DNA of 64,000 bases from a virus (lineage: Duplodnaviria; Caudoviricetes). The translations under genes were made by a program, and so were the position numbers. Positions 44,531-60,017 of the stretch are shown piece after piece. Location of the stretch: positions 64,001 through 128,000 of IMG/VR virus record IMGVR_UViG_3300009431_000002, one strand, 5' to 3'. How positions within the stretch are numbered: the first letter of the stretch is position 1; each line of letters opens with the position of its first letter. The notes beneath the pieces are model-generated. The model was not told the DNA's origin and ran no database searches. It saw only the letters and a program-made list of their open reading frames with translations.

Positions 44531-44568
44531 GGGCGTCTCCTTCAGTGGGTGCGGCGTCTCTCGCCGCG

Positions 44569-45318
44569 TCACACACCAAATTCTGTATCGGTGTCCGGGC
44601 TATTGGCTAGCCCATAGTGCGCCAGGAACGCGATGTCGTTGAGCACCTCGAAGGGGGGCTTCTCGACATCACTCGCCCGTGGCTCACCAAACACCAGGTC
44701 GAGGGTGGTTCGCTGCGGCGGAACGGTGGGCGTCTCGCTCCACGTCCACTGCATGAACCAGGGAATGGTGACATCGACCATTACGGCCTCTGCCTCGGCG
44801 GATCCGTTGACGATGGCCCCCGGCGGCGTTTCGGGTCCGACAGCGGCCTTCTGTCCGATGTGGTGGAACCCACCTTCCTTCTGCAACAGGCGCCGATGGA
44901 AGACGGTTCCGCGGCTGACGAGGTCGGCGATCCTCCCGGCCTCCATCCCCGTCTCGGCGACGCAGTGCGCCACGAGGTTGCCGGGGATCAGGTCCGTGTG
45001 GGTGCGCTCACCCGTCATCGTGTTCATGGTCCGCAGCTTGTCCATGACGAGCCCGGACCACTCGTAGCCGCCGCGCATCACGACGATGTGCGGCTTCTGC
45101 GCGATGGCCTCCCGGTCGACGGGGGCCTCGGCGGTGATGATGATCTTGGAGTCGTGGTCGTCCGGCTCCCAGCGGAAGGCGTCGACGTGGAAGTGGTTGA
45201 AGAGCCCCTGCAGGAAGCACACGTACAGCCGGCGCGTCCAGTCACCGATGCCCTCGTAGGGGTCTCGGTAGCCCGAGTCCGGCGTGACGGGCGCGACGGT
45301 GGGGACTCTGGAGCTCAA
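44569..45318 (-). CDS. tail terminator/completion protein
   Basis: Directly upstream of the sheath; KPHIVVMRGGY...GNLVAHCVAETGMEAGRIA pattern. Confidence 0.55.
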   Translation of the reverse strand: MSSRVPTVAPVTPDSGYRDPYEGIGDWTRRLYVCFLQGLFNHFHVDAFRWEPDDHDSKIIITAEAPVDREAIAQKPHIVVMRGGYEWSGLVMDKLRTMNTMTGERTHTDLIPGNLVAHCVAETGMEAGRIADLVSRGTVFHRRLLQKEGGFHHIGQKAAVGPETPPGAIVNGSAEAEAVMVDVTIPWFMQWTWSETPTVPPQRTTLDLVFGEPRASDVEKPPFEVLNDIAFLAHYGLANSPDTDTEFGV

Positions 45319-47322: not shown

Positions 47323-49041
47323 CTACGCCGTGAGCAGCTTCTGGTACGCCTCCGGGAGGTGGTTCTCCCAGCCGCCCTTGGCCAGGAGCCGCTCGTGGAC
47401 GGTGCTGGTCTTCTCCTCGTCCGCCTTGTCCTTCTTGATGGGCGTGCCGAACGGGACCTTGGTCGGCGTCTCGCCGCGCTCGTGCGCCCCGGCCATCTGG
47501 TGCATCCGGATGCCCTGGCCGGCGGTGCCTCCAACCAGTCCGGTGAGCGCGCCTGCGCCTGCGCCCAGCAGCGTGGACCGGAGATCGCCACCGTGCGACG
47601 CGCCGATCAGGCCGCCGCCCACTGCGCCACCGACGCCCATCGGCAGTCCGCTGCCCAGCCCGGCGGCCAGCAGTCGCCCACCGGGGCCGATCTCGGACGC
47701 GTACTGCTGGTAGTTGGCCAGGTTCTGCAGTGCCTCGGCCTCCGTCGGCCGCCCGGACTCCTGCACGGGTCCCGGGGCATCGAAGGCGCTGCGCCGTTCG
47801 CCCTCGGCGGCGCCGGTCTTCTCGCCGGCCCGCGCCAGCTCGGACTTCATCCGCTCGATGTACTCCAGGGCCTCGTCGCCCACCGGGGCGAAGGTGGCGC
47901 TCACGCTGGAGCCCAGCGGGGCCTTGCGGGGCGCCGGCATCCGGCTCATGTAGTCGGCCACCTCGTCCCGCCGCTCGGGGTTGCCGGCGTAGAACTCACC
48001 CAGGGCGCCCGGCATCTGCTGCAGGGCGTCCTCGATGTTGGACTCGCGGCGCTCGCGGAGCAGACGCTGCGTGCCGAGGGTGCCGATGGCACCACCAGCC
48101 ACCCCGGCCCCGAGGCCGAGCGCGCCGGCACCGACCGGGCCCAGCGCCTCCTTCTTCAGGTCGGGCTTCTCGGCGCCAGGCTTCTTGGGGTCCTGGGCCT
48201 CCTGGACCTTCTTGGCGTTCTCCTGCAGGGCCTCCATCATGTCGCCGTTGGCCGCCTTGACCAGGGCCTCGCTGAACGAGATCCCCTGCTGCTCGGCGTA
48301 GGCGGCGACCTTCTCCTGCATCTCCTTGTACGCCTCGGGCGTTGGCGCGCTCATCTTGGCCTTGGGCTTGGAGGGAGCCGGCCCCGCTGGGCCCGCGCCC
48401 GGGGGCATGGCGGGCATGCCGATGCCGCCCATCGCCGGCTGACCGGCCATCGGCACGGAGGGTCCCGGAGCGGGGGCCATCGGCGGGCCGCCTGCCGGCG
48501 GACCGGCTTCCGGGCCACCCATCCCCATGGCGTCCATGCCCATGCCAGCCGCGCCACCGGCCATGCCGCCGAGCGCTCCTCCGCCGGCCATGCCGGCCAG
48601 ACCGCCACCGACCCCGCCCACGACGGCGCCGCCGGGGCCACCGCCTGCCTGGATGCCGGCGCGGATGCCTCCGATCATCCCCAGCAGGGTGCCGGTGGCC
48701 GCGCCGAGCATGGTGCCGATCTGCGCGGGGCTCGGGGGCACGTCCTCGGTGATGGGAGCGGTCGAGTCCTCGGCCACCATCTCGGACGCCGGCATCTCAC
48801 CACCCTCCGGCGGCATGCCCTCGTCCATCATGGGCTCCTCCATCTCCGGCGGTGCGCCGGGGGTCGGAGGCGTGCCCGGGGGTACGGCCGGGGGCGGCTC
48901 CGGGAGCTGGAGGTCACCGGGGGCCATGGCGAGCTTCAGGAGGTCCTCCATCGACATCTCCTGGAGCATCTCCTGTCGAGACGCGCGCTTCTCGAGGGCG
49001 GCCTCTTCCTGGGCGGCGTCGTTCAGCCAACGGTCGAGCAT
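47323..49041 (-). CDS. putative internal head protein (Pro/Met-rich, glycine zippers, K-x-A motifs)
   Basis: LEKRAS, LLKLAM, EKVAA, KKEAL; several GxxxGxxxG segments. Confidence 0.7.
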   Translation of the reverse strand: MLDRWLNDAAQEEAALEKRASRQEMLQEMSMEDLLKLAMAPGDLQLPEPPPAVPPGTPPTPGAPPEMEEPMMDEGMPPEGGEMPASEMVAEDSTAPITEDVPPSPAQIGTMLGAATGTLLGMIGGIRAGIQAGGGPGGAVVGGVGGGLAGMAGGGALGGMAGGAAGMGMDAMGMGGPEAGPPAGGPPMAPAPGPSVPMAGQPAMGGIGMPAMPPGAGPAGPAPSKPKAKMSAPTPEAYKEMQEKVAAYAEQQGISFSEALVKAANGDMMEALQENAKKVQEAQDPKKPGAEKPDLKKEALGPVGAGALGLGAGVAGGAIGTLGTQRLLRERRESNIEDALQQMPGALGEFYAGNPERRDEVADYMSRMPAPRKAPLGSSVSATFAPVGDEALEYIERMKSELARAGEKTGAAEGERRSAFDAPGPVQESGRPTEAEALQNLANYQQYASEIGPGGRLLAAGLGSGLPMGVGGAVGGGLIGASHGGDLRSTLLGAGAGALTGLVGGTAGQGIRMHQMAGAHERGETPTKVPFGTPIKKDKADEEKTSTVHERLLAKGGWENHLPEAYQKLLTA

Positions 49042-49045
49042 GTCA

Positions 49046-50098
49046 TCACCTCACGGGTAGGGCGGCTGCGCCGCCGGCTCCCAGCACTGCCCCGGTCAGC
49101 GCGCCGAGCAACGCGGCCTTTCCCGGGTGGTCTACGTTCACGTCGGCGACGCCCTCGGAGGCGCGCGCCAGCACGGCGCCCAGCCTCTTGGCGTAGCCGG
49201 GGTCCTCGGTCTCGTCCAAGGCCCGCTCCGACTTCTCCCGGCCGAGCTCGGCCAGGGCTTGCTCCTTGCTCCTGCCGCTCATTGTAGGCCTGCTGAACGC
49301 GTACTGCCCAGCGCCTCCGAGCGCTGCACCCACGGGCGCGCCGATGATGGCACGCTGCATCCGGGGGTCCAGGGCCTGCCAGGCGGCCACGAGATCCTGG
49401 GCCGCGCTGGTCTTCACCGGCGACCGCTTGATCTTCGTGTCGGCCTCGTCGTGGGGCTCCCACGTCCTCCCCAGCAGGCCAGCACCAGCTCCTGCAGCCG
49501 TCGCCGCTCCGCCGGCGAGGCCGAGGGTGAGCAGCCCGCCCTTGACGGCCTGGGGCCCGAACTGCCTCACCAGCTCCTTGACGTGGGGCTTGACGGCCTG
49601 GCCGCCGGCGGACTCCGACACGCCCTTCAACCCCGAGAAGATCCCCTTCAGGGTGTCGTACTTCCCCATCATCATGCGGCCGGCGATCCCGCGCTGCCTC
49701 TGCCCTCCTGCCATGCCCTCGAGGCCGCCCTGCAGCATGCTGCCGACGCTGTGCTCGTCGAGGCTGTTGGCGAGTGCCGCAGCGGCCTGGGAGTGCATGG
49801 CGTCGCTGATGAGCCTGTCGAGGGCCTGCCCCCGCAGGTAGGCGACGCCTCCGCCCGCCGCAGCGCCCGCCGGGACACCGAGGGAGACGCCACGGAGCTC
49901 GCGTTCGTCGCCACCGCCGAAGTAGCCGCCAGCACCTCCGAGCACTGCGCCGAGAGCGGCATGGGGCACGGCCGTCGCCAGCGGGAGCCTGCGGAGCAGG
50001 TGCTTCCGCTTGTCCACCTCCCGGGCGAGGATCTCCTCGGGGCCTGGCGCGGCGTCCTCGGACATGGCTCCGGTGATGGCGCTGAACGGTCGGGTCAC
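49046..50098 (-). CDS. putative internal head protein with several glycine zippers
   Basis: GTGA overlap start; five Gly/Ala hydrophobic segments; VKTSAA. Confidence 0.7.
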   Translation of the reverse strand: MTRPFSAITGAMSEDAAPGPEEILAREVDKRKHLLRRLPLATAVPHAALGAVLGGAGGYFGGGDERELRGVSLGVPAGAAAGGGVAYLRGQALDRLISDAMHSQAAAALANSLDEHSVGSMLQGGLEGMAGGQRQRGIAGRMMMGKYDTLKGIFSGLKGVSESAGGQAVKPHVKELVRQFGPQAVKGGLLTLGLAGGAATAAGAGAGLLGRTWEPHDEADTKIKRSPVKTSAAQDLVAAWQALDPRMQRAIIGAPVGAALGGAGQYAFSRPTMSGRSKEQALAELGREKSERALDETEDPGYAKRLGAVLARASEGVADVNVDHPGKAALLGALTGAVLGAGGAAALPVR

Positions 50099-50592
50099 GA
50101 CTCCCACCCCCCGTACCAGCCGTGCGAGTACCAGATGTACTCGGAGTGGATGCCGCCGCCCCAGCCGGCGCGGATGTTGCGCGACGCCTTGAGCCGCAGC
50201 TTCTTGTGCTCATACTCGTTCGAGATGAGCTGGATCCACGCCATGATGGCCCGGCTCTTGTCGGTGTTGTACGAGAAGCCGCCGTCGGTGAAGGCGATGG
50301 CGTTGCGGGTGTTGAGCAGTCCCACCGACGTCAGGAGGTTCACCACGGTCCCCCGGAGCAGCAGGTGCATCGACGGGAAGGTCGAGACCGTCCAGGTGCC
50401 GATCTCCGGGGGCGTGGTGTTGAAGTCGTCGATGCAGTCCAGCACCGCCCAGGCGATCATGCGGTTGCTGCTCTCCTCACCCCGCGTGAGGCGGTTGAGC
50501 TGCGGGTGGTCACGCATGAACGTGCGTACCATCTTGACGACCTGCGCCAGGCGCTGGTCCTCGGATGGTGTGTAGCTGGACGGCGTGAGCAT
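50095..50592 (-). CDS. head-tail adaptor/neck protein
   Basis: Size and position downstream of the capsid gene; helical with DGGFSYN loop; aromatic C-terminus. Confidence 0.55.
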   Translation of the reverse strand: MLTPSSYTPSEDQRLAQVVKMVRTFMRDHPQLNRLTRGEESSNRMIAWAVLDCIDDFNTTPPEIGTWTVSTFPSMHLLLRGTVVNLLTSVGLLNTRNAIAFTDGGFSYNTDKSRAIMAWIQLISNEYEHKKLRLKASRNIRAGWGGGIHSEYIWYSHGWYGGWES

Positions 50593-50595
50593 CGA

Positions 50596-51120
50596 CTACT
50601 CCAGCAGCTCGTCGAGCTTCGTCAGCGGCGTCAGCTTGGAGCCGCCCTCGACCGCGAGGTCCACGGCGTCCTTGAGCTCGGTGAGCTTCATGCGGTCGCT
50701 GAGGAGCGGCGCCGGTCGGACGTACTTGGCGAACGCCAGCACGTCCTTCTTGGTCCGCATCTTCCGCATGGCCTCGAGGTATGGGGTGTAGTCGACAGCG
50801 GCGTCGCCGGTGTCCACCTCGTCGCGCTCCGCAGGCTCCGGCCGCCCCGGCGGCTTGTAGGCCTGCGCCGCGCGGCGCTGCTGGTCGATCTCGCGCTTGC
50901 GGCGGACGTACCAGGCCGGCGGGGTGGCGCCGACGTGGATGTCCCGAGCCTTCTGCATGCGCGCAAGTCGCGCGGTGTGGATGGGCCCGGCGATCTTGGA
51001 GACCGGGACCACCAGCCTACCGCCAGGCGGCACACGGACGCGGAAGATGGTCAGGGGCCGAGGCCTGTCCTGCACGTCCGTGAGGTTGTAGATGTTGGTC
51101 CGCTTGGTCTTCGCCGCCAT
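50596..51120 (-). CDS. head-associated protein with C-terminal Rho-N/LEM-like helical domain
   Basis: MRKMRTKKDVLAFAK...DRMKLTELKDAV. Confidence 0.6.
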   Translation of the reverse strand: MAAKTKRTNIYNLTDVQDRPRPLTIFRVRVPPGGRLVVPVSKIAGPIHTARLARMQKARDIHVGATPPAWYVRRKREIDQQRRAAQAYKPPGRPEPAERDEVDTGDAAVDYTPYLEAMRKMRTKKDVLAFAKYVRPAPLLSDRMKLTELKDAVDLAVEGGSKLTPLTKLDELLE

Positions 51121-51121
51121 C

Positions 51122-51844
51122 TCAGTCCTCCATCGACACGATCTTGGCGTCCAGGGCCTTCATGGCGCCGGTGCGGGTCTTGCCCGACTGCTCGGCGTCA
51201 CGCAGGGCCAGGACGTGGTCGGCGTCCTCGCAGGTCTCGAGGAAGGCCTCGAGGTCCCCGATGTTGCCGTCGAGGACCGACAGGTCGTAGGTGACCTCGA
51301 CCTCCTCGGGCTTCTCCTCGAGGTCTTCGGGCTCGTCGGTCTCCGCGGGCGCGCCCGGCCCCGTCTCCTCCCCCAGATCCCCCTCCTCTTCCCCGTCGGC
51401 CTGGGAATCCTCGCCGACATCGGCGTCCTTCTCCTCGGGTGGGTCCTCGAGGTCGTCCAGGCCGACAGGCTCGTCCGCGTCCTCGTCGACCTCCTTCTCG
51501 GCCGGCTCCTCGGGCTCCGGCGGCACGAGCGCCTCCATGTGCAGCGCCGTGAACCGGGCACCGTCGCCGGCCTGCAGGGCCTCGATGGCCTCCTGCCGCT
51601 TGGCCGGGTCCTTGAAGTCGTCGAACAGTTCGGTCAGGTCCGGGCCGGGCTCCGGCTCCGACGACACTGTGTCGTCGACCTCCGGCACGACCTCCTGGAT
51701 GAAGCCGTTCTTGGTCAGGTGTTGGATGTGTCGCCGATCCTTCTTCGCGTCCGCGTCCGAGACGGGGAGCGGTACGGATCCCAGGCACTTGCCTGCGATG
51801 GCGATGTTGGGCGGAGCGCCCGCGAGCTTGCGGTAGTACTTCAT
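51122..51844 (-). CDS. acidic head-associated protein with C-terminal helical domain
   Basis: E/D/P-rich linker; LDGNIGDLEAFL...AEQSGKTRTGAMKALD. Confidence 0.65.
   Translation of the reverse strand: MKYYRKLAGAPPNIAIAGKCLGSVPLPVSDADAKKDRRHIQHLTKNGFIQEVVPEVDDTVSSEPEPGPDLTELFDDFKDPAKRQEAIEALQAGDGARFTALHMEALVPPEPEEPAEKEVDEDADEPVGLDDLEDPPEEKDADVGEDSQADGEEEGDLGEETGPGAPAETDEPEDLEEKPEEVEVTYDLSVLDGNIGDLEAFLETCEDADHVLALRDAEQSGKTRTGAMKALDAKIVSMED
51659..51677. repeat. CGACAC-W-GTGTCG palindrome (intragenic)
   Basis: CGACGACAC-T-GTGTCGTCG, perfect 19 bp. Confidence 0.75.
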
Positions 51845-51878
51845 GATGGGGTCCCTCTCTCCTCTGCTTCCGAGGGCC

Positions 51879-51919
51879 CCCGCCCCCGCGCCGCCGCGCG
51901 GGTTGGGAGCGGGGGCGGG
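51879..51919 (-). terminator. GC-rich hairpin downstream of the major capsid gene
   Basis: CCCGCCCCCGC / GCGGGGGCGGG 11-bp stem; no U-tract, so possibly a stabiliser or attenuator. Confidence 0.45.
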
Positions 51920-51950
51920 ACCCCGGTAGAACGTCAGGCCACTGGCCTGA

Positions 51951-53072
51951 TCAGAACTGGTTGACCTGCGGGTACGTCAGGCCATCCTCGGCACGGTTGT
52001 TCATCGCGCCCAAGTCCTCGATATCGACGGGCTGACGATCGGCGAAGTTCGCGTCCTCCGCGCCCGTCGTGACGGAACCGCGGTAGAGCTCGAGCTTGCG
52101 GACTGCGGCGATGTTGCCGAAGCCCATGCCGATATCTTCCCACGCCTGCCAGAAGATCCGGTTGGCGCGCTTGTCGATGTAGAACTTCGTCTGGTTCAGG
52201 ATGTAGAACCGGCCGAAGAACTCGGGCTTGGTGAAGATGTAGACGTTGCCATCCCGCAGGATGTCCGTCTTGATCGTCCGGATGAAGTTGGTGCCGAGGA
52301 GCATGTTGTACTTGTAGCCGTCGACCACGGTCTCGGACTGGATCTTGTCCCCGAAGTCCTCGACGGTCCACTGCAGCACGTCCTCGAAGTCCGGCTCGGA
52401 CATGAGCATGCGCTCGGGCCGCAGGCGGTTGCGGCTCAGGAGCTTGCGCAGGTTGACGATGTCCGGCCGCAGGATGGGCCGCACCTCGAAGTCGTCCACG
52501 CCACCGAGGGTCAGGGCGTTGAGGCCCTTCACGCGGGACACGCCGACCACGGTGCCGTTGTTGACGTTGGTGCGGTTGAAGGCGACGGTGCCGTTGGTCT
52601 CGAACTGCAGCGCCTCGATGCAGGCCTCCACGTGGAGCAAGAACTCGCGGTCCTCGATCTCCTGGATGTCCTTGGCGCTGTTGTCCTCGATCACCTTCGT
52701 GATCGGCATCTCGTACGCCAGCAGCTCCTGCTCCGTCTTCTCGAACTTCTCCGAGGAGATGGTGAAGAAGGGGATGGCGTACCGCGGCGCGCTGATGTAC
52801 CGCGCGGTCGGCTGGCCCCGGAAGGTCAGCGGCATGGCGCGGGACTGCGGCTCGATGTCCACGATCCGCACGAGCGTGTCGTGGTTCTCGGACCGCTGGC
52901 ACTCGTTGCGGGTGATGGGGGTGGGCGGGACCACCTTGCGCGCGAAGCTGACCTCACGCAGGTGGTCACGGATGAAGGTGCCGCCGTACTCGGCGATCTT
53001 CTCTTTGCCCTCGGCGGTCTCCAACTTGCGGTTGAAGAGCTCGTTGAGGACCTCGGCGGGGGTGCTGGACAT
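51951..53072 (-). CDS. major capsid protein
   Basis: 373 aa, downstream of protease/scaffold/decoration genes; IRDHLREVSFARKVVPP...YAIPFFTISSEKFEK...IQEIEDREFL; followed by a hairpin. Confidence 0.75.
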   Translation of the reverse strand: MSSTPAEVLNELFNRKLETAEGKEKIAEYGGTFIRDHLREVSFARKVVPPTPITRNECQRSENHDTLVRIVDIEPQSRAMPLTFRGQPTARYISAPRYAIPFFTISSEKFEKTEQELLAYEMPITKVIEDNSAKDIQEIEDREFLLHVEACIEALQFETNGTVAFNRTNVNNGTVVGVSRVKGLNALTLGGVDDFEVRPILRPDIVNLRKLLSRNRLRPERMLMSEPDFEDVLQWTVEDFGDKIQSETVVDGYKYNMLLGTNFIRTIKTDILRDGNVYIFTKPEFFGRFYILNQTKFYIDKRANRIFWQAWEDIGMGFGNIAAVRKLELYRGSVTTGAEDANFADRQPVDIEDLGAMNNRAEDGLTYPQVNQF

Positions 53073-53132
53073 GTTGTGTCCTCCTCGACTCGGTTCGTTG
53101 GTCCTACGACCCTTGGTTGAGCCCTTCAGGGC

Positions 53133-53642
53133 CTAGCTGGGCACTCCGACGATGCCGCGGATGCGTCCGTGCACGGCGTCGATGTGCGTCAGGCGTGCGA
53201 CGACCAGCCCGGCACCGGCGCCCACCTGGTCGGCCAGGACGCGGCGGATCACGCCGGCGCCTGCCAGGTCGAAGTCGATGACGGTCAGGGCGTTGTTGGT
53301 GTCGAGGTCGAGGCCGGTGTCGTCGTAGACGTCCGTCTCGAACTCGTAGAAGCTCGGGAGCAGCACGTGCCCCATGCCACCGTTGATGGCCTGGGCGTCG
53401 TAGCGTCCCTCCTCGAGCCAGAAGCAGTACTGCGGCCGCGCGGCCACGTCTGCGGTGGCGTCGTTGTTGTCCCCTCCGCGGCGGAGGTTCCAGTCGTCGT
53501 CGTACTCCAGCCACTCGCCCTCGACGAGCGAGCGCCCGTCCTGGGGCCACAGGGGCCGGTGTCCGGCAGCGTCGCCGGTGCCGGCGACCACACGACGGTC
53601 CCGCGTGGGGAGCGTCTCGTACTCGGTGATCAGTCGAAACAT
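53133..53642 (-). CDS. capsid decoration/cement protein (putative)
   Basis: Small acidic beta protein immediately upstream of the capsid gene. Confidence 0.5.
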   Translation of the reverse strand: MFRLITEYETLPTRDRRVVAGTGDAAGHRPLWPQDGRSLVEGEWLEYDDDWNLRRGGDNNDATADVAARPQYCFWLEEGRYDAQAINGGMGHVLLPSFYEFETDVYDDTGLDLDTNNALTVIDFDLAGAGVIRRVLADQVGAGAGLVVARLTHIDAVHGRIRGIVGVPS

Positions 53643-53682
53643 GGTGCGTCCTCCATCGGCTCAGTGAGCCGAGTCGTTGCTG

Positions 53683-54054
53683 CTAGTCCTCGTCCAGGAT
53701 GAAGGCCTCCAGCTGGGTCTTGCCCGCGCCGGCGACCTTCTCTTCGCCGTCGCCCAGCTCGAAGAAGGGGACGTCGCCCGCGGCCATGCCGATGGCTTCC
53801 TCCCTCGTGGAGAGCTTGTCGGGCTCGGACAGGAGCTCGGCCGTCTTGGTGCCGACGTCGTCCTCGTCGATGAGGCCCTTCTGCGCCATCTTGTCCGCGA
53901 GTGCGGCGGCGCGCTTCTCCAGCTTGAGCTGTGCGTTCTCCACCCGGAGCTGCTCGTTCTCGGACTCGAGGTCGCTCGCCCGCTTGGTCAGAACGCGCAA
54001 GGCGCCCGGGACCTGCTTGAAGACGGTGTGTGCCTGCTGCCGGTCGATGGTCAT
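53683..54054 (-). CDS. scaffold-like coiled-coil head protein
   Basis: Coiled coil; five K-x-A motifs; acidic C-terminus LEAFILDED. Confidence 0.6.
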   Translation of the reverse strand: MTIDRQQAHTVFKQVPGALRVLTKRASDLESENEQLRVENAQLKLEKRAAALADKMAQKGLIDEDDVGTKTAELLSEPDKLSTREEAIGMAAGDVPFFELGDGEEKVAGAGKTQLEAFILDED

Positions 54055-54066
54055 CGTCGGTACCTC

Positions 54067-55767
54067 CTACACCGTCGCCGGGACGTCCGGCGCGGCGGCG
54101 GGGGCCACAGGCTCCCCGGTTCCCTCGCCCTCGGCGCGAGCCGCGGACTCCAGGATGTCTGCGAACTGCTGCTCGGACCGCTCCGTCTGCTGACGGTCGG
54201 CCTCGTCGGGATCCTCCACGTCCGAGGCGGGTGGCACCTCGTCCATGGGGTTGTCGGCGAGCTTCGCCATCGCCTGCTTCAGCGCAGCCTCCTTCTCCGG
54301 GCCGTCGTCACCGGCGAGGACACGTCGGAGGAGCTCACGCGCCGCGTCGGCCTCGATGGTGCCGTCGGACGCGATCTTCGCTCCCGCGGAGTCCACCACG
54401 GGGCCGAGGTTCTCGTGGAGCTTGGAGTCGGTCGCCTTCGACTGGGCCGGCTCGTCCAGGACCTTGCCCATGTCCTTCTTGGGCTCGGCCTTTGCCTCCC
54501 GCTTGGTGTACTGGATGGCGGCGTCGTTGGAGCCGACCATCTTGTCCTGCCCGCGGGTCTTCTTCTCGGGGACGCCCTCGCCCGCCTCGGTGCCCGGGAA
54601 GTCGCCACCGTCCACGGTGGTGCCTCCCTTGCCGGCGGAGGGCTTGGCGCCGGAGTTGTCCTCGGCCAGCTTCCGCAGCACGAAGTCCACGAGGGGGCTC
54701 CGGCCGCGGACGGAGGCCGTGACCTCCTGGCCACCGCCCAGCACGGAGGCGCCGCCGGCGCCGAGCGCGCCGAGGCCGGCCACGCCACCGGCGCCCTTGC
54801 CGACGGCCTTGGCGCCCTCACGGCGGGCCTGCTGCTGGAGCTCCGGGATCTGCCCGGTGATGGCAGCCAGGGCCTCGTCGCCGAAGCCGCGCCGGCCCAT
54901 GTCGCCGGCCATCTCGCCGGCCTCACCGGCCTGCTCCAAGAGCTCGCGGCGGAGGGCCAGGTTCTCCAGCGGGTTGACGGCCTTGACGGCCTTGCCGCCG
55001 GCGCCCTGGATCGCCTGCAGGATCTCGGCTGGGCCGGCCTGCTTGACCATCACGCGGGCGTAGCGTGTGGGGATGCCCTGGGCCTCCAGTGCGGCCTGGG
55101 CCTCCTTGAACACGCCCTCGTCCGGGTAGCCGGCGGTGGGCACGGAGCCGGAGTTGCCGCCCGGCGCCTGGTTCTCGTCGGTCTCCATGGCGGTGGACGA
55201 CGAGCCGGCGGCGAGCTCGGGGCTCTCCAGCGGCGTCTCGTTGGGGATGGTGGTGGTCTTGGCCTTGTCGTGCTTGTAGGGCTGCTCGCCCGCACCACCC
55301 GGAGCATCCTCCTGGGTGTTGGCCATGGCGTTGCTGGGCGCCGGGGACTCCTGGAGCCCCTTGCCCGTGGCGGGCTTCATCGGCGGCGTCAGGTCCGCCG
55401 GCGCGTTGCCGGCGTCCTTGGTGTCGGTCTTGAGGGCCGTCTTCTCGTAGCCCATCAGCTCGGCGACGATGAGGGCCTCGGCGACCTTCTCCTCGTTGGA
55501 GCGGCCGTCGACGATCTCGTCGAGGTGGTCGTTCGCGTACTCCACCGCACCCGCGAGCTTGTCGAAGTACGCGTAGTCGAGCTCCGCGGACTTCTCCTCA
55601 CCCTCGTCCTTCTTGACGAAGGGCGGCACGTCCTTCTTGTCCTTGGGCTTGTCCTCGGCCTCGCCCTCGTCCGCCTCGGCGGTCTTCTGCATCCGCTCGT
55701 GGCCGCGGTGGTAGGCGTCCTTGAGCATCTCGGTGAGCTGGAAGCCGTGGGTGGTGCTTTCGGGCAT
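54067..55767 (-). CDS. scaffold/internal head protein
   Basis: Low complexity; at least 10 K-x-A motifs; one glycine zipper. Confidence 0.65.
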   Translation of the reverse strand: MPESTTHGFQLTEMLKDAYHRGHERMQKTAEADEGEAEDKPKDKKDVPPFVKKDEGEEKSAELDYAYFDKLAGAVEYANDHLDEIVDGRSNEEKVAEALIVAELMGYEKTALKTDTKDAGNAPADLTPPMKPATGKGLQESPAPSNAMANTQEDAPGGAGEQPYKHDKAKTTTIPNETPLESPELAAGSSSTAMETDENQAPGGNSGSVPTAGYPDEGVFKEAQAALEAQGIPTRYARVMVKQAGPAEILQAIQGAGGKAVKAVNPLENLALRRELLEQAGEAGEMAGDMGRRGFGDEALAAITGQIPELQQQARREGAKAVGKGAGGVAGLGALGAGGASVLGGGQEVTASVRGRSPLVDFVLRKLAEDNSGAKPSAGKGGTTVDGGDFPGTEAGEGVPEKKTRGQDKMVGSNDAAIQYTKREAKAEPKKDMGKVLDEPAQSKATDSKLHENLGPVVDSAGAKIASDGTIEADAARELLRRVLAGDDGPEKEAALKQAMAKLADNPMDEVPPASDVEDPDEADRQQTERSEQQFADILESAARAEGEGTGEPVAPAAAPDVPATV

Positions 55768-55770
55768 GGT

Positions 55771-56046
55771 TCACCTCACGCTCGGGGGCTGTAGGCCTTT
55801 GCCCATGTCGCCCGCCGGGGTGTTCTTGATGGGGGACTCCAGGCGCATCGGAGGTGCCAGCGACGGCCCCTTCACGCCCTTCACACTGGGGATGGCTCCA
55901 CTACGAGGAGACTGCACGAGCTTGGGCGCCGACGAGGTGGGGGATGTCAGTCCTGGCATCTTCGCACTCAACGCGATCTTCTCCAGCTCGTCGACGAACC
56001 CGGCCACCACTACGGGGTTGGCCGTCTTCGTCAGCTCCTTCAGCAC
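55771..56046 (-). CDS. small internal head protein (FVDELEKIA tag)
   Basis: LTKTANP..AGFVDELEKIALS; Pro/Lys-rich tail. Confidence 0.6.
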   Translation of the reverse strand: MLKELTKTANPVVVAGFVDELEKIALSAKMPGLTSPTSSAPKLVQSPRSGAIPSVKGVKGPSLAPPMRLESPIKNTPAGDMGKGLQPPSVR

Positions 56047-56055
56047 CGCGCTCCT

Positions 56056-56715
56056 CTACTGGAGCAGGTGGCCGTAGCCGTTGGCCTGCAACAGCTGCGC
56101 GGCGGCCTGGTCGATGCGGTCCTGCTGCGAGGGCTGCTCCGGCGCGGCCGCGGTCTTGGCGGTCTCGCAGTCGCCCTTGCAGTCCGCCTTCAGGCACCGG
56201 CACAGCTGGTTGGCGGCGACCTTCTCGGCCAGGAACTCGTTGGCGCGGGCGGTGGCCAGCTCGACGAGCAGCGGGTCGGCCTGCGGCTGCTCGGGCTGGG
56301 CCTGCGCGGCCGCGGCGGTCTTCTGGATGACGTCCAGCTCGTTGACGAAGGCGTGGGCCATCTGCCGGCCGAGCAGATCCGCCTCGGCCATCTCGGCCGC
56401 GGCCTTCTTCTCCTCGTCGTTCATCGGCGGGCCCTCGTCCTTCTTCTCGTCCTTCTTCTCCTCGTCCTTCTCCTCCTTCTTGGGCGGGAAGGGGGGAGCG
56501 GGCGGCGCGTCGGCCGGGGCCTCCTCGGCCGCTACCTTCTTGAGGTAGTGCTGGAAGGTGGCCTGGACCTGGGCGTCGGACATCTGCGAGATGTCGTAGC
56601 CGTCGGCCGAGGCCAGCTTGTCCAGCGCGTCGTAGACGGCCTGCTGGTCGACCTGCTCCTGGTTGCGGGCGTGGCCGTAGGCCGCTGCGAGGACCGGGTT
56701 CATCTGGTCGGGCAT
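56056..56715 (-). CDS. scaffold/internal head protein
   Basis: DKLAS, KKVAA, QKTAA, EKVAA, AKTAA; AFVNEL. Confidence 0.7.
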   Translation of the reverse strand: MPDQMNPVLAAAYGHARNQEQVDQQAVYDALDKLASADGYDISQMSDAQVQATFQHYLKKVAAEEAPADAPPAPPFPPKKEEKDEEKKDEKKDEGPPMNDEEKKAAAEMAEADLLGRQMAHAFVNELDVIQKTAAAAQAQPEQPQADPLLVELATARANEFLAEKVAANQLCRCLKADCKGDCETAKTAAAPEQPSQQDRIDQAAAQLLQANGYGHLLQ

Positions 56716-56728
56716 TTCCTCTTGCTCC

Positions 56729-58420
56729 TCATGCTGGCTGCGCTGAGGCTAGCTTCACCGCCAGCTGTGGGTTGCTCTGAACGATTCGTTCTCCAAGCTC
56801 CGGGCCCAGCCTCTTTCCCGCATCCCAGTGTGCACGGACGAGGTACACGACGGGGCCTGACGAGAACAATCCTGCCAGCGGCCCACCCTCAATGGCAACA
56901 GGCTTTCGCCCGAAAAGCTCAGCGAGGGGGTCCAACTGGTCGGTTGGTAGCCCAAAGTGTGGTTGCGCAGTTTCCCGTGCCAGCAGGGAGAGCAGAGCTC
57001 TCCTGTACCCGTTGTAGGCCCGAGAGATCTCACTCAACAGCGGGTTGTCCGCGTAGTTCGGGGCCGAGGGCTTGGGCACTTCCATGCGGATGATGACGGT
57101 CAGCCTCTTCTTCAGGGGGCCGCCGAACATCGAACGGCCGCCGACCAGTGGGGCCAGCAGCTCCTGCAGGTCTGGCGCGTGGCCAGAGAGGGACGGGCAC
57201 TCGCCCATGTCCATGCACGGCTTGAATACGCTGCCGGCGGAGTCAAGCTCGTCGGCCAGCGGCTTGTTGCCGCAGCGGACCAAGGTGATGCGCTGGAACT
57301 CACGGGGCGTCAGCACGATCCCCATGCGGCCAGCAGTCCCCAGGGCGGTCCCGAGGTCCGACGACACTGTGTCGTTTGGCGCCGCCATCCGGTCGAGGAC
57401 CTTGGAGGGCAAGGGCTTCTCGGTCTTCTCCAACAGGGGGACGGCGTGTCCGGCGGCCTGGCTGGGCGGCAGCTCCTTGATGATGTCGGCGAGCTTCTGC
57501 TGACTGGCCGTCTTCGGGCTGTCCGCCACCATCTCCTGGAGCGCCTCCGCGTACGCGCCCGCGGTCTTCTCGTACCCGAGATCCGCAGCGCGCTCTGCTG
57601 ACGGCGCGGAGAGGGTGCCGGGCTTGACCACGACGAACGTCCTCTTGCCTGACGCCAGCAGTGCCATCACCTTGGCAGTCCTGTCCGCTCCGATCAAGAC
57701 GTACGAGATGTCGAAGAACCGCGGGTGCGGGTTCCACACGAAGATCTGCTGGCCGTCCGGCAGGATCATGTTGGGCCGGTACCGCGGGTCCTTGCGGCTC
57801 ATGTGCTCGCAGTAGTCAGCCCGAGTCTTGGACTTGTGGCCGCAGATCGAGCACACGTCGTACTTGACCCGGCAGCCCATGCTCACCGGCAAGTACTCGC
57901 CCCGCTCCAGGCGCTCGATGATGTCGTAGCCGCCGGCCTGGCGGCACAGGCCGTGGTCCAGCTCCTGGACCAGCTCGACCCGCTTCATCAGGTCGTTCCA
58001 CACCGCCAGCACGACGTCGCCGTACTTCGGGTGGTTGTGCGGCGGGTAGGGCTTGTTCTTGTGGTGCCGGAACGCGTTGGCCAGGTAGAAGGTCGTGTAC
58101 CCGTAGGGCGCGTGCGCGGCGAGACGCCGGCGGCCCTCGATGTCCCAGGGCGGGACGTTGCGCCAGCCCGGCGGCTCCAGCTTCAGGGAGTCGATGCTGA
58201 ACCCGTCGGCGTTGATGTTGGGGCCCCAGATCTCTGTGGCTCCCAGCGCGTTGACCAGTGCGTAGGTCTTGTCGGGCTTCGGCTCCAGCTTGGCGATGAA
58301 CTGCTGCACCTCGTCGTGCAGGGGCGCCGCGGTCTTCACGAGACCGGGCTCACCTGGAGTGACGAGCTGGGAGTAGACGCCCCGCTCGTCCTCCCCCTGG
58401 TAGTGCAGCAGCTTGATCAT
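56729..58420 (-). CDS. prohead maturation protease (HK97/herpes-fold, Zn insertion) with C-terminal extension
   Basis: FRHHKNK...GDVV; LPVSMGCRVKYDVCSICG...YCEH; NPHPRFFDISYVLIGAD. Confidence 0.7.
   Translation of the reverse strand: MIKLLHYQGEDERGVYSQLVTPGEPGLVKTAAPLHDEVQQFIAKLEPKPDKTYALVNALGATEIWGPNINADGFSIDSLKLEPPGWRNVPPWDIEGRRRLAAHAPYGYTTFYLANAFRHHKNKPYPPHNHPKYGDVVLAVWNDLMKRVELVQELDHGLCRQAGGYDIIERLERGEYLPVSMGCRVKYDVCSICGHKSKTRADYCEHMSRKDPRYRPNMILPDGQQIFVWNPHPRFFDISYVLIGADRTAKVMALLASGKRTFVVVKPGTLSAPSAERAADLGYEKTAGAYAEALQEMVADSPKTASQQKLADIIKELPPSQAAGHAVPLLEKTEKPLPSKVLDRMAAPNDTVSSDLGTALGTAGRMGIVLTPREFQRITLVRCGNKPLADELDSAGSVFKPCMDMGECPSLSGHAPDLQELLAPLVGGRSMFGGPLKKRLTVIIRMEVPKPSAPNYADNPLLSEISRAYNGYRRALLSLLARETAQPHFGLPTDQLDPLAELFGRKPVAIEGGPLAGLFSSGPVVYLVRAHWDAGKRLGPELGERIVQSNPQLAVKLASAQPA
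57361..57375. repeat. CGACAC-W-GTGTCG palindrome (intragenic)
   Basis: ACGACAC-T-GTGTCGT, perfect 15 bp. Confidence 0.7.
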
Positions 58421-58424
58421 GCCA

Positions 58425-59099
58425 TCAGCCAGAGACGGCCTTCATCGCCCCCGTGAACGCGGCTCCCGCGCCGCCCGCGGCCTGCGTGCCGACGGGCCGT
58501 CCCATGTCCTTGCGAGCCCGGATCAGCTCGCTGACGGTCTTGTGGTCGATCAGCTCGGCGTCGGAGACCCGCTTGACGAAGGTGCCGGCGACCAGTGGGT
58601 CCGCGGCCATCTCCGGTGCGAAGCGGTGCATCGTGTTCCAGGCGCGGTTGACCATGGTGCCGTCGTACTGGTCGGCGTCGGCGAGTTCCGGGTGGACCTC
58701 GACCATCTTCTTGAAGCGGTGCTTCTTCATCGCCTCCTGGACGACGACGTCCGCGGCGTTGACGCCGGCCTGCGCCGCGGCACCCGCGGCGACACCGCCG
58801 GCGGTGAGGGCGCCGCCGAGCCCACCGACCATCAGCGCGGCCTCATGCGGCTTCTTCCCGCTGAGCAGTCCCAGTAGCCCCTTCGCCGGAGGCGCCTGCC
58901 CGATCAGCTCGCCGATCTCGGCGAGGGTCTCCGGCGTGACGCCGCGCATCTGCGGGAAGCGGCTTTCGACGGCCCGGAGGGTCGCCGCTGGGATCGCCGC
59001 GACCTTCTCCATCGCAGCGCTCACCAGGCTGTCAGCCTGCTCCTCGGACAGCTGGCCGCTGGACACCAGCTGGTCGATGTGGTCGGTCGCGGCGCTCAT
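58425..59099 (-). CDS. putative internal head protein with glycine zipper
   Basis: AMEKVAA; MVGGLGGALTAGGVAAG; APEMAADPLVAGTFV. Confidence 0.7.
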   Translation of the reverse strand: MSAATDHIDQLVSSGQLSEEQADSLVSAAMEKVAAIPAATLRAVESRFPQMRGVTPETLAEIGELIGQAPPAKGLLGLLSGKKPHEAALMVGGLGGALTAGGVAAGAAAQAGVNAADVVVQEAMKKHRFKKMVEVHPELADADQYDGTMVNRAWNTMHRFAPEMAADPLVAGTFVKRVSDAELIDHKTVSELIRARKDMGRPVGTQAAGGAGAAFTGAMKAVSG

Positions 59100-59108
59100 G
59101 GGGCCTCC

Positions 59109-60017
59109 CTACTGGCGGACGCGCTTGTCGACGTCCTCGTACTGGCGCTCGAGTTCGGCCTTCGCAGCCTTCACCACGCCGAGGCGCTGCTGCAGCAGGT
59201 CGAGGTGGCGGGTCGCCTTGGCGAGCTGGCTGTCCAGGTCGACCTCCCGGCTCTGCGCCGCGGCCACCTTCTCGGCGTCGAAGTGGATCTCGAGGTCGGG
59301 GTCGTTCCGCAGCGCCGACTTCATGCCGACGATGATGTGCGGGAGCATGCTGGCCATCTTCTCGGGACCGGAGACGAACTCCACCACGGCGCCGACGTCC
59401 TCGAGCGGCACACCCTCCTGCAGGGCCTGCTGCATCACGGCGTCGAACTGCTCGGCTGCCTCCTTGTAGAAGGTCCGGACCTCCGCCTCCTCCGCGCTGA
59501 CGTGCTCGATGGCGCCGCGGAGCTGCTGCCACTGCCGGACGTCGGCGGAGGCGTCCACGTGCTCCGATGCCACCTTCTCCTGCTCGACGCCGAAGGCATC
59601 GGCGAGGACGTCGTCGGCGATGTCCTCGTGCAGTCCCTCCCGGAAGTCCTGGACCTGGACGCCGTAGGCCTGCGCGGCCGAGAGCTTCACGGCGGGGCGC
59701 GACTGCCCCTCCAGGTGCGCGAGGATCACGACGGGGTCGCCGTAGTCGAACACCACGTTCTTGACGGCGCCGGCCTCCTTCTGGAAGAGCTGGTCGTAGG
59801 CCTCCTGGTTGGCGGCCTCGGTGATCCGGTGGACGTGCTGGGGCGTCAGGTCGGGGTTGGCCTGGGCGATCTTGAGAACGGCGTCGTTCAGTGAGGTACC
59901 CTGGTTCAGGAACTCCGACGCGGCCTCCTTGCCCAGCAGCTTCAGCTTGGTCGCTTCGACCCCGGAGGTCTTGGTCTTGGTCGACGTGAGGAACGCTTCG
60001 AGAGCGGTGTCGGGCAT
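59109..60017 (-). CDS. head morphogenesis protein, first gene of the structural operon
   Basis: SLNDAVLKIA...LTPQHVHRITEAANQEAY..VVFDYGDP; about 7 K-x-A motifs. Confidence 0.7.
   Translation of the reverse strand: MPDTALEAFLTSTKTKTSGVEATKLKLLGKEAASEFLNQGTSLNDAVLKIAQANPDLTPQHVHRITEAANQEAYDQLFQKEAGAVKNVVFDYGDPVVILAHLEGQSRPAVKLSAAQAYGVQVQDFREGLHEDIADDVLADAFGVEQEKVASEHVDASADVRQWQQLRGAIEHVSAEEAEVRTFYKEAAEQFDAVMQQALQEGVPLEDVGAVVEFVSGPEKMASMLPHIIVGMKSALRNDPDLEIHFDAEKVAAAQSREVDLDSQLAKATRHLDLLQQRLGVVKAAKAELERQYEDVDKRVRQ

What the first reader, a model, noticed from the sequence alone, without database searches (positions are those of the whole stretch)
47323..60017. Lysine-based K-x-A motif saturates head proteins: candidate prohead-protease cleavage code
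Seen: 59109 (GKEAAS, LKIAQ, QKEAG, EKVAS, EKMAS, EKVAA), 58425 (EKVAA), protease 56729 (VKTAAP at its N-terminus, EKTAG, PKTASQQKLAD, VKLASA at its C-terminus), 56056 (DKLAS, KKVAA, QKTAA, EKVAA, AKTAA), 54067 (10 or more), 53683 (TKRAS, EKRAA, DKMAQ, TKTAE, EKVAG), capsid N-terminus (EKIAE), 47323 (EKRAS, LKLAM, EKVAA, KKEAL) and the distant 30376 (AKLAMEKEAT). By eye the sheath, tube and fibre lack this density. Established: T4 gp21 and phiKZ gp175 cleave head proteins at short Glu-ending consensus sites. Inference: this lineage uses K-x-A instead, cutting scaffolds to small peptides and releasing domains from polyprotein-like internal proteins.
Basis: partly seen in the sequence, partly recalled or inferred. 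Interest (0 to 1): 0.72.

Follow-up and report, generated by a model that had tools for sequence, protein, structure and literature searches.

The report
Lys-x-Ala cleavage code in phage heads
The head-building proteins of this uncultured 202-kb phage and its relatives carry far more copies of a short Lys-x-Ala motif than chance allows. The motif is most likely the cutting signal of the phage's own T4-type head-maturation protease, a specificity I found in no paper, but no cut has yet been shown.

Summary
In the seven genes 53683-60017, K-x-A occurs 45 times against about 20 expected (z 6.2-6.7, also with local shuffles). It is the top of 1,600 gapped dipeptides. Controls A.K, KA, K..A, R.A and E.A are at chance. 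Four genes are significant on their own: 59109, 56056, 54067 and 53683. Genes 47323, 30376, 58425, the protease and the capsid are not.

The full motif is [L/M/I/F]-x-K-x-A-[S/A/G]. It saturates the matching head modules of Salmonella phage Arash, Vibrio phage D69 and three metagenomic relatives (z 6.1-9.4).

Gene 56729 has a T4 gp21-like protease fold (Z 9.6) with invariant His119/120 and Ser180. Conserved motif copies bracket this domain in disordered linkers. In relatives they also flank fused cargo domains. The same scan run on T4 recovers its known I/L-x-E code.

Best reading (0.7): these are prohead-protease cleavage sites, probably cut after Ala as in herpesviruses. No proteomic evidence exists. 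This scan noted the same code earlier on other phage genomes, and I found no publication of it. It is a new variant of a known kind.

The parts
59109..60017 (-). 302-aa head protein of unknown family with 9 K-x-A sites (first at K30). Counterpart by gene order and size of Arash gp220 and D69_0268.
   Evidence: 9 vs 2.6 expected, P = 0.0006. The counterparts carry 10 and 11 sites.
58425..59099 (-). 224-aa Gly/Ala-rich head protein with a single N-terminal site, MEKVAA (K32).
   Evidence: Not enriched by count (1 vs 2.2). The gene in the same slot of three relatives also carries N-terminal sites (Arash gp221 at 21 and 45, L010 8963-9817 at 23, L011 9410-9991 at 23).
56729..58420 (-). 563-aa prohead protease polyprotein: N-terminal propeptide, gp21-fold protease domain, cleavable linker, helical C-terminal domain.
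   Evidence: AF2 model. T4 gp21 Z 9.6, rmsd 2.8 over 131 aa; herpesvirus proteases Z 4.6-6.3. phrog_18299 'head maturation protease', E = 2e-4.
57686..58324 (-). Protease domain, aa 33-245. It holds invariant His119/His120 (58061-58066) and Ser180 of VSMGC (57881-57883), followed by a Cys-rich stretch (Cys183, 189, 192, 204 by sequence).
   Evidence: Invariant columns in 39 homologues. pLDDT is 78-96 over most of aa 31-240, with one dip to 55 at 121-130. hhalign pairs Ser180 with T4 gp21 Ser140, but weakly (E = 0.2). In relatives an intein is inserted between Gly182 and Cys183.
58328..58336 (-). Protease N-terminal site, LVK29-T-A31-A.
   Evidence: K.A at this alignment column in 38 of 39 homologues. 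98 of 115 50%-identity representatives have [LMIVF]xKxA at the matching distance from the Ser. Lies in a segment with pLDDT below 50.
57488..57568 (-). Linker sites after the protease domain: EK285TAG, PK303TAS, QK309LAD.
   Evidence: The column of K285 has K.A in 33 of 39 homologues. The surrounding linker is gap-rich, and residues 283-310 have pLDDT below 50.
56747..56755 (-). C-terminal site VK556-L-A558-S, five residues from the end of the protease protein.
   Evidence: A C-terminal site is conserved in 28 of 39 homologues; variants are K-x-[S/G]-S.
56056..56715 (-). 219-aa acidic, Ala-rich scaffold-like protein with 7 sites.
   Evidence: 7 vs 3.5 expected, P = 0.04. Genes in the same slot of relatives have z 3.8-4.6.
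55771..56046 (-). 91-aa protein with the N-terminal tag FVDELEKIAL plus TKTAN.
54067..55767 (-). 566-aa internal or scaffold-like protein with 16 sites. Predicted fragments are 5-98 residues long.
   Evidence: 16 vs 6.5 expected, P = 0.0004. Fragment sizes.
53683..54054 (-). 123-aa scaffold-like protein (my inference of a helical protein, not modelled) with 5 sites.
   Evidence: 5 vs 1.3 expected, P = 0.002.
53133..53642 (-). 169-aa protein with no lysine at all, directly upstream of the capsid gene. Predicted to be uncut.
51951..53072 (-). Major capsid protein (HK97 fold) with KEK25-I-A27-E in its low-confidence N-terminal arm (52992-53000).
   Evidence: Foldseek E = 2e-9, probability 1.00 to SaPI1 and HK97 capsids. 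K25 and A27 are invariant in 30 homologues. Arash and D69 have LVKEAG and LTKEAG at residue 27.
47323..49041 (-). 572-aa Gly/Ala/Pro-rich protein with a consensus N-terminal site, LEKRAS (K18). Overall count is not enriched.
   Evidence: 5 vs 3.8 expected; site.
61817..63586 (-). Large terminase, which marks the start of the head module. Not enriched.
   Evidence: phrog_675 E = 4e-55; PF05876. K.A 3 vs 1.4 expected. TerL of three relatives has 0 K.A.

Best explanation
K-x-A is the core of a seven-residue recognition motif, [L/M/I/F]-[E/V]-K-[V/T/L/I]-A-[S/A/G]-[A]. I propose that it is cut by the phage's own prohead serine protease, the N-terminal domain of ORF 56729-58420.

Proposed mechanism (inferred, not shown):
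1. The protease, scaffold-like proteins and internal proteins co-assemble inside the prohead.
2. The protease frees itself at the sites that bracket its catalytic domain (K29, K285/303/309, K556).
3. It trims 18-35-residue N-terminal propeptides from head proteins, possibly including the capsid protein.
4. It cuts the scaffold-like proteins 53683, 54067, 56056 and 59109 into short peptides that can leave the shell before DNA packaging.
5. In relatives the same sites release enzymes fused behind the protease.

The cleaved bond is most likely Ala|Ser/Ala/Gly, with P3 = Lys and P1 = Ala (about 0.6 given that cleavage occurs). The alternative is cleavage after Lys.
For: SHOWN
- Enrichment and its specificity in the window.
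- The same enrichment in the syntenic head modules of six phages with GC 46-69%: z 6.1-9.4, and 29-38% of all Lys lie in K.A. In 294 sites, information is confined to positions -2 to +4.
- A positive control: the identical scan on T4 gp67/68/21/22 returns I.E (z 4.0) and L.E (z 3.7) as the top two, which is T4's established code.
- The protease: gp21 fold Z 9.6, with invariant His119/120 and Ser180.
- Site positions are conserved in the protease alignment (38/39, 33/39, 28/39). They lie in gap-rich linkers with pLDDT below 50.
- At these sites Lys is never replaced by Arg. At a non-consensus structural K.A (GAD[K/R]TAK), K and R interchange 21:17.
- In 141 representatives at 50% identity or less, K.A occurs 1,405 times vs 623 expected.
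- Sites flank fused domains: InPase 412-526 has sites at 400/405 and 546. DUF6321 and DUF5661 are flanked likewise.
- A K.A with K at residues 15-40 occurs in 9 of 14 head-region proteins against 13 of 156 elsewhere (Fisher P = 3e-6).
- K/A-rich non-head proteins are not enriched: Snf2 8 vs 8.8, RNA polymerase 11 vs 13.
- Phage G gp19 has LVKTAA, LEKVAS and LLKIAS around its protease domain.

INFERRED (for the Ala|Ser bond)
- Position +2 accepts only A, S or G, and +3 is S, A or G.
- A small P1' is shared by T4 (Ser 4.1-fold enriched after [LI]xE), by SPN3US (PMC10052503) and, from my own knowledge, by herpesvirus assemblin (Ala|Ser).
Against: - No N-terminal sequencing or semi-specific proteomics exists for any member. 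The Arash virion study used trypsin only, reports no peptides and deposited no raw data.
- Arash gp220-gp225 were detected in virion preparations, so these proteins are not wholly removed. That preparation listed 116 proteins, including many enzymes.
- The capsid site in this sub-lineage (K-E-K-I-A-E) lacks the -2 hydrophobic and the +3 small residue.
- No sequence profile (Pfam, PDB) links the enzyme to a named protease family. hhalign to T4 gp21 is not significant.
Confidence: 0.7

Rival explanations
1. The motif is cleaved by the same protease, but after the lysine: [L/M]-x-K|x-A. This would be a charge-swapped version of T4's [L/I]-x-E| rule.
For: The hydrophobic residue at -2 and the charged residue at 0 have exactly the spacing of T4's P3 and P1. 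T4 gp21 is the best structural match. Lys is the most invariant position.
Against: This would put beta-branched or hydrophobic V/T/L/I at P1'. It would also demand a strict small residue at P2' and P3', unlike T4, SPN3US or herpesvirus sites, which all prefer a small P1' (PMC10052503). Arg never substitutes for Lys, which is unusual for a basic S1 pocket.
Confidence: 0.22
2. The motif is not cut. It is a multivalent docking peptide by which scaffold, internal and cargo proteins bind the inner shell, the portal or the protease, so it serves as a packaging address.
For: Some copies sit at the extreme N-terminus (MEKAAA on the Snf2 protein). Others end a longer shared tag, F-x-D-E-L-x-K-I-[A/G], which resembles a targeting sequence. 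Arash homologues are found in virion preparations.
Against: Docking does not explain conserved copies on both sides of the protease domain and of fused enzyme domains, always in disordered linkers. It also does not explain 16 copies in one protein. T4's cleavage code gives the same statistical signature. The two roles are not exclusive.
Confidence: 0.12
3. The sites are cut by a different protease, either a host enzyme or another phage enzyme, and not by ORF 56729.
For: No enzymology links the enzyme to the motif.
Against: The motif accompanies this protease family in every relative examined that is closer than phage G, including its own flanks. In phage G itself the flanks of the protease carry it, while the wider head set is only modestly enriched. 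No Peptidase_C39 was found in the genome. The hosts are diverse (Salmonella, Vibrio, uncultured marine).
Confidence: 0.04
4. The motif is a by-product of Ala/Lys/Glu-rich helical composition or of a DNA repeat.
For: The enriched proteins are rich in Ala, Lys and Glu.
Against: Local-window shuffles keep z above 6. A.K, KA, K..A and E.A are at chance. K/A-rich non-head proteins are not enriched. The sites use 31 distinct 9-mers. The motif is conserved across a GC range of 46-69%.
Confidence: 0.02

Closest known systems
Bacteriophage T4 prohead protease gp21 (MEROPS S77) and its (L/I)-x-E cleavage code
   Same: Best structural match (Z 9.6). Like T4, there is a multi-site scaffold, and this enzyme may process itself as reported for related prohead proteases. 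The code is detectable as the top gapped dipeptide in core proteins. A hydrophobic residue lies two positions before the charged one.
   Different: Lys/Ala motif instead of a Glu-ending one, probably cut after Ala. Cys-rich stretch after the catalytic Ser. Long C-terminal extension, often with fused cargo. No significant sequence similarity.
phiKZ gp175 and SPN3US gp245 (MEROPS S80), motif (S/A/G)-x-E or A-x-E
   Same: Large phages with virion RNA polymerase and many internal head proteins. Long propeptides carry several motif copies. The protease cleaves its own C-terminus (PMC5694885, PMC10052503).
   Different: All reported cuts there are C-terminal to Glu. Here no Glu-based pair is among the top dozen enriched gapped dipeptides.
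Herpesvirus assemblin (MEROPS S21), (V/L/I)-x-A|S release and maturation sites (motif from my own knowledge)
   Same: Related fold (Z 4.6-6.3). A small-small Ala-Ser pair. Sites bracket the protease domain, and another lies near the C-terminus of the protease protein.
   Different: An obligatory Lys two residues before the Ala. Bacterial virus. The nature of the catalytic triad was not established here.
Salmonella phage Arash gp220-gp226 and Vibrio phages D69/D181/D148
   Same: Cultured relatives with the same gene order, the same protease family (33% identity) and the same motif saturation.
   Different: Their proteins are annotated only as structural or hypothetical. No processing has been reported (PMC10585845).

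Membership tests
Assemblin-fold prohead serine proteases (clan SH; T4 gp21 type) | Assemblin/gp21 fold of the catalytic domain | tested here: met
   AF2 domain 33-243 (pLDDT 78-96 over most of it, one dip to 55). 5jbl_B Z 9.6, rmsd 2.8 over 131 of 164 residues. Next best are the VZV, PrV, HSV-1 and HCMV proteases at Z 4.6-6.3.
Assemblin-fold prohead serine proteases (clan SH; T4 gp21 type) | Conserved catalytic Ser and His | tested here: met
   His119, His120 and Ser180 are invariant in 39 homologues. The His-Ser spacing is 60 residues. The only hhalign segment pairs Ser180 with T4 Ser140, but its E-value is 0.2.
Assemblin-fold prohead serine proteases (clan SH; T4 gp21 type) | Third catalytic residue (Asp in gp21, His in assemblin) | tested here: inconclusive
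   Asp188 and Asp237 are invariant, Asp202 nearly so, and His119 is also a candidate. No residue-level superposition was available.
Assemblin-fold prohead serine proteases (clan SH; T4 gp21 type) | Match to a curated sequence profile of a protease family | tested here: not met
   No Pfam hit at E <= 0.01. No PDB chain matched a profile search at E <= 10. The only hit is weak: phrog_18299 'head maturation protease', E = 2e-4.
Assemblin-fold prohead serine proteases (clan SH; T4 gp21 type) | Gene lies in the head module, between the terminase and the scaffold-like and capsid genes | tested here: met
   The same order is seen in Arash, D69, L009, L010 and L011.
Assemblin-fold prohead serine proteases (clan SH; T4 gp21 type) | Proteolytic activity and self-processing | not testable with these tools
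   Only inferred, from conserved motif copies that flank the domain.
Prohead-protease cleavage codes (T4 L/I-x-E; phiKZ S/A/G-x-E) | Motif over-represented in scaffold and core proteins beyond their composition | tested here: met
   z 6.1-9.4 in six phages. The T4 positive control recovers I.E and L.E.
Prohead-protease cleavage codes (T4 L/I-x-E; phiKZ S/A/G-x-E) | Cleavage C-terminal to glutamate | tested here: not met
   No Glu-based pair is among the top dozen enriched gapped dipeptides, and E.A is at chance. The signal is Lys/Ala.
Prohead-protease cleavage codes (T4 L/I-x-E; phiKZ S/A/G-x-E) | Motif-defined new termini in mature virions | not testable with these tools
   The only relative with a virion proteome (Arash) gives no peptide-level data.
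Herpesvirus assemblin-type release and maturation sites | Sites bracket the protease domain, and one lies near the C-terminus of the protease-scaffold protein | tested here: met
   Conserved K.A columns before the domain (38/39), after it (33/39) and near the C-terminus (28/39).
Herpesvirus assemblin-type release and maturation sites | Cleaved bond is Ala|Ser | tested here: inconclusive
   Position +2 is A, S or G and +3 is S, A or G. This is compatible with Ala|Ser, but the bond is unknown.

The most novel reading that the evidence does not exclude
The motif may be both the address and the release signal of a modular cargo system. Any protein placed behind a short tag ending in K-x-[A/G], or fused behind the protease through K-x-A linkers, would be carried into the prohead by binding the protease or scaffold. 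It would then be cut free for injection. Examples seen are pyrophosphatase, DUF6321 and DUF5661 in relatives, and the F-x-D-E-L-x-K-I-[A/G]-tagged small proteins here. If so, the packaged and injected proteome of thousands of uncultured large phages could be read from sequence.
Probability: 0.3. Interest if true: 0.75.

Novelty: new variant of a known kind. Interest (0 to 1): 0.6.

Why it matters
In the SPN3US papers I read, the characterised gp21-type prohead proteases (T4, phiKZ, 201phi2-1, SPN3US) all cut after glutamate. A Lys/Ala code in a large family would be a second specificity class for them. By its likely Ala|Ser bond it would link phage and herpesvirus maturation more closely. The family is large: 2,647 protease representatives at 50% identity and more than 2,000 capsid clusters, on contigs of about 190-200 kb.

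In practice the motif lets one predict from sequence alone:
- mature protein ends;
- which proteins are scaffold (many sites) and which are retained or injected cargo (a single N-terminal site);
- where polyproteins are split.

It is directly testable in cultured relatives (Arash, Vibrio phage D69).

Tried and rejected
- Complex prediction of the protease domain with the first 80 residues of 53683 gave no verdict (score 0.01). It is not evidence either way.
- A profile search of the PDB by sequence found nothing. Pfam found nothing for any head protein except TerL.
- hhalign of the protease alignment against T4 gp21 was not significant (E = 0.2).
- The Arash paper and its supplements hold only protein-level counts and annotation. 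There are no peptides and no deposited raw data.
- The phage G paper names gp19 a maturation protease but gives no specificity.
- Phage G head genes gp15-gp25 show only modest K.A excess (20 vs 11, z 2.9). Most of it comes from gp19 and gp21, and the phage G capsid protein has no K.A.
- Mycobacteriophage Cali gp92-gp94 show no enrichment, although gp93 carries a distantly related protease domain.
- PHROGs gave no names for ORFs 30376-51844, so 'sheath, tube and fibre' could not be verified. It also gave none for the K.A-rich ORFs beyond the window.
- No Peptidase_C39 is present in this genome.
- Literature searches for a Lys/Ala prohead-protease motif found nothing.
- I rejected composition bias and DNA repeats as explanations.


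Full report
WHAT THE WINDOW IS. The window is bases 64001-128000 of a 201,921-bp uncultured virus record with about 68% GC. Codon-position GC gives a clean gene set. On the minus strand a head module runs from the large terminase (61817-63586; phrog_675 E = 4e-55) down to the major capsid protein (51951-53072). The capsid protein has weak PHROG support, but its AF2 model matches HK97-fold capsids (Foldseek E = 2e-9, probability 1.00). Between them lie eight ORFs without Pfam families. The nearest cultured relatives are Salmonella phage Arash, Vibrio phages D69/D181/D148 and, for the protease domain only, Bacillus phage G gp19.

THE OBSERVATION. For the seven ORFs 53683-60017, K.A occurs 45 times against 19.8 expected. 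z is 6.2 with whole-protein shuffles and 6.4-6.7 when residues are shuffled only within 30- or 15-residue windows, so co-localisation of Lys and Ala does not explain it. K.A is the single most over-represented of 1,600 gapped dipeptides.

The reversed and shifted patterns (A.K, KA, K..A), the Arg version (R.A) and E.A are all at chance. Per gene, four ORFs are significant (59109, 54067, 53683, 56056). Genes 47323, the protease, 58425, the capsid gene and the distant 30376 are at chance by count. The sites use 31 different 9-mers, so this is not a DNA repeat.

Genome-wide, z >= 3 occurs in only seven of 188 ORFs. Three are in this cluster. Two more lie just beyond the window, in the region that also encodes the large RNA polymerase. 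K/A-rich non-head proteins are not enriched (Snf2 8 vs 8.8; the 2,048-aa RNA polymerase 11 vs 13).

THE MOTIF IS LONGER AND LINEAGE-WIDE. In the window the context is (L/M)-E-K-(T/V/L/I)-A-(A/S/G). The syntenic head genes of Arash (GC 53%), D69 and three metagenomic contigs (GC 46-62%) show the same saturation. Pooled z per phage is 6.1-9.4, and 29-38% of all lysines sit in K.A. In 294 sites, information is confined to positions -2 to +4. The strict form [LMIVF].K.A[SAG] occurs 13 times against 1.2 expected in the window's head set.

As a positive control I ran the same unbiased scan on T4 gp67, gp68, gp21 and gp22. The top two patterns were I.E (z 4.0) and L.E (z 3.7), which is the experimentally established gp21 code (PMC5694885). 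So the statistic detects real prohead-protease codes, and the signal here is stronger than T4's.

THE PROTEASE. An AF2 model built on 39 homologues gives a confident domain at residues 33-243 and a second, helical domain at about 320-480. The first domain matches T4 gp21 best (Z 9.6, rmsd 2.8 over 131 of 164 residues), followed by herpesvirus proteases (Z 4.6-6.3). His119, His120 and Ser180 (in VSMGC) are invariant. The only hhalign segment against T4 gp21 pairs Ser180 with T4 Ser140, but it is not significant on its own.

In several relatives an intein is inserted between Gly182 and Cys183, two residues after this Ser. Inteins are typically found at functionally critical sites. No curated sequence profile recognises the enzyme. 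I therefore treat it as a gp21-like protease by fold and context, not as a member of a named sequence family. The family is large: 2,647 representatives at 50% identity with E <= 1e-3, and 499 with E <= 1e-30.

WHERE THE SITES ARE.
- In the protease alignment, K.A is fixed before the catalytic domain (K29; 38 of 39), after it (K285 column; 33 of 39, inside a gap-rich linker) and near the C-terminus (28 of 39).
- In the model these sites fall in or beside segments with pLDDT below 50.
- At these sites Lys is never replaced by Arg, and position +2 varies only among A, S and G. A non-consensus K.A in the last helix of the domain (GAD[K/R]TAK) swaps K and R 21:17, which serves as an internal control.
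- Among 141 further representatives, K.A totals 1,405 against 623 expected. 98 of 115 have [LMIVF]xKxA at the expected distance upstream of the Ser.
- Phage G gp19 has LVKTAA before its protease domain and LEKVAS and LLKIAS after it.
- In relatives whose protease is fused to other domains, the sites flank those domains closely. InPase 412-526 has sites at 400/405 and 546. DUF6321 326-398 has sites at 309 and 429. DUF5661 305-345 has sites at 297 and 352.
- In this genome, 9 of 14 proteins encoded between 47323 and 60017 have a K.A with K at residues 15-40, against 13 of 156 elsewhere (Fisher P = 3e-6).
- In the capsid protein K25 and A27 are invariant in 30 homologues. They lie in the low-confidence N-terminal arm, ahead of the first strand. 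Residues 1-21 are less conserved (0.64) than 22-28 (0.88). Arash and D69 have a consensus LVKEAG or LTKEAG at the same place. The window's own KEKIAE fits the consensus poorly, so capsid cleavage in this sub-lineage is the least certain part.

MECHANISM. The best reading (0.7) is that the motif is the cleavage signal of this protease. The protease would free itself, trim N-terminal propeptides, and cut 53683, 54067, 56056 and 59109 into fragments of 5-98 residues. In relatives it would release fused enzymes. These steps are inferred from anatomy and comparison, and none has been shown biochemically.

Which bond is cut is open. I favour Ala|Ser/Ala/Gly (about 0.6 given cleavage). Positions +2 and +3 accept only small residues. 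A small P1' is shared by T4 and SPN3US (PMC10052503), and herpesvirus assemblin cuts Ala|Ser (my own knowledge). Cutting after Lys would mirror T4's L-x-E spacing, but it would place V/T/L/I at P1'.

RIVALS. A non-cleaved docking motif remains possible and may coexist with cleavage (0.12). Support for it comes from N-terminal M-x-K-x-A copies and from the longer F-x-D-E-L-x-K-I-[A/G] tag on seven small ORFs. A different protease (0.04) and a composition artefact (0.02) are unlikely.

KNOWN OR NEW. The SPN3US papers report that the T4, phiKZ, 201phi2-1 and SPN3US proteases all cut after Glu (PMC5694885, PMC10052503). Full-text searches found no Lys/Ala prohead code. The Arash and phage G papers report no processing.

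This scan's own earlier notes describe the same K-x-A code on other phage genomes, and on this protease gene read from an overlapping window. Those are unchecked AI notes, not independent evidence. I class the finding as a new variant of a known kind: a prohead-protease cleavage code with a new specificity, predicted and not demonstrated.

Noticed in passing
Relatives P0003, P0005 and P0007 (protease homologues); L009:4491-7571: An intein (Hint plus LAGLIDADG) is inserted in the protease between Gly and Cys of the VSMGC motif, two residues after the putative catalytic Ser. The terminase of contig L009 also carries an intein.
   Followed up: partly
P0017 (L011:10001-12502), P0039, P0042: In many relatives the protease is fused to cargo domains (inorganic pyrophosphatase PF18823, DUF6321, DUF5661). 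K-x-A sites flank each domain. Family members range from 284 to 1,497 aa.
   Followed up: partly
window 53133-53642 (-); 40010-44572 (-); 36592-39105 (-): The 169-aa protein just upstream of the capsid gene has no lysine at all. The very large Ala-rich ORFs downstream have 8 Lys in 1,520 aa and 10 in 837 aa. By contrast, Lys outnumbers Arg in the head set (140 vs 94).
   Followed up: no
window 45692, 46390 and 55998 (-); beyond the window at 77810 and 78632; genome 1379 and 1723: Seven small ORFs begin with a shared tag, F-x-D-E-L-x-K-[I/V]-[A/G], which ends in the K-x-A/G core. It may be a packaging address joined to a cut site. Another finding covers it.
   Followed up: partly
genome 138191-140335 and 154034-155128 (L014:192-2336 and L014:16035-17129, minus strand): Two more strongly K-x-A-enriched proteins lie outside the window, in the same region as the large RNA polymerase gene (714 aa, 11 vs 4.7; 364 aa, 10 vs 2.3, z 5.7). 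Neither has a PHROG match.
   Followed up: partly
L012:7352-11212 (Mycobacterium phage Cali gp93): This 1,286-aa protein is annotated 'tape measure'. It has an N-terminal SMG + CxxC protease-like domain and sits just upstream of the major head protein. It looks like a protease-scaffold polyprotein, and it shows no K-x-A enrichment.
   Followed up: partly
L001:10738-12213 (Arash gp222); L002:8605-10020 (D69_0270): These proteins are annotated 'structural protein' and 'hypothetical protein'. They are homologues of the prohead protease (33% identity over the domain) and have the same flanking sites.
   Followed up: yes
L009:4491-7571; L010:4845-6644; L011:5054-6895: The large terminases of three relatives contain no K-x-A at all (expected 1.1-3.8). 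This may reflect avoidance of the motif in a protein that works at the prohead.
   Followed up: no
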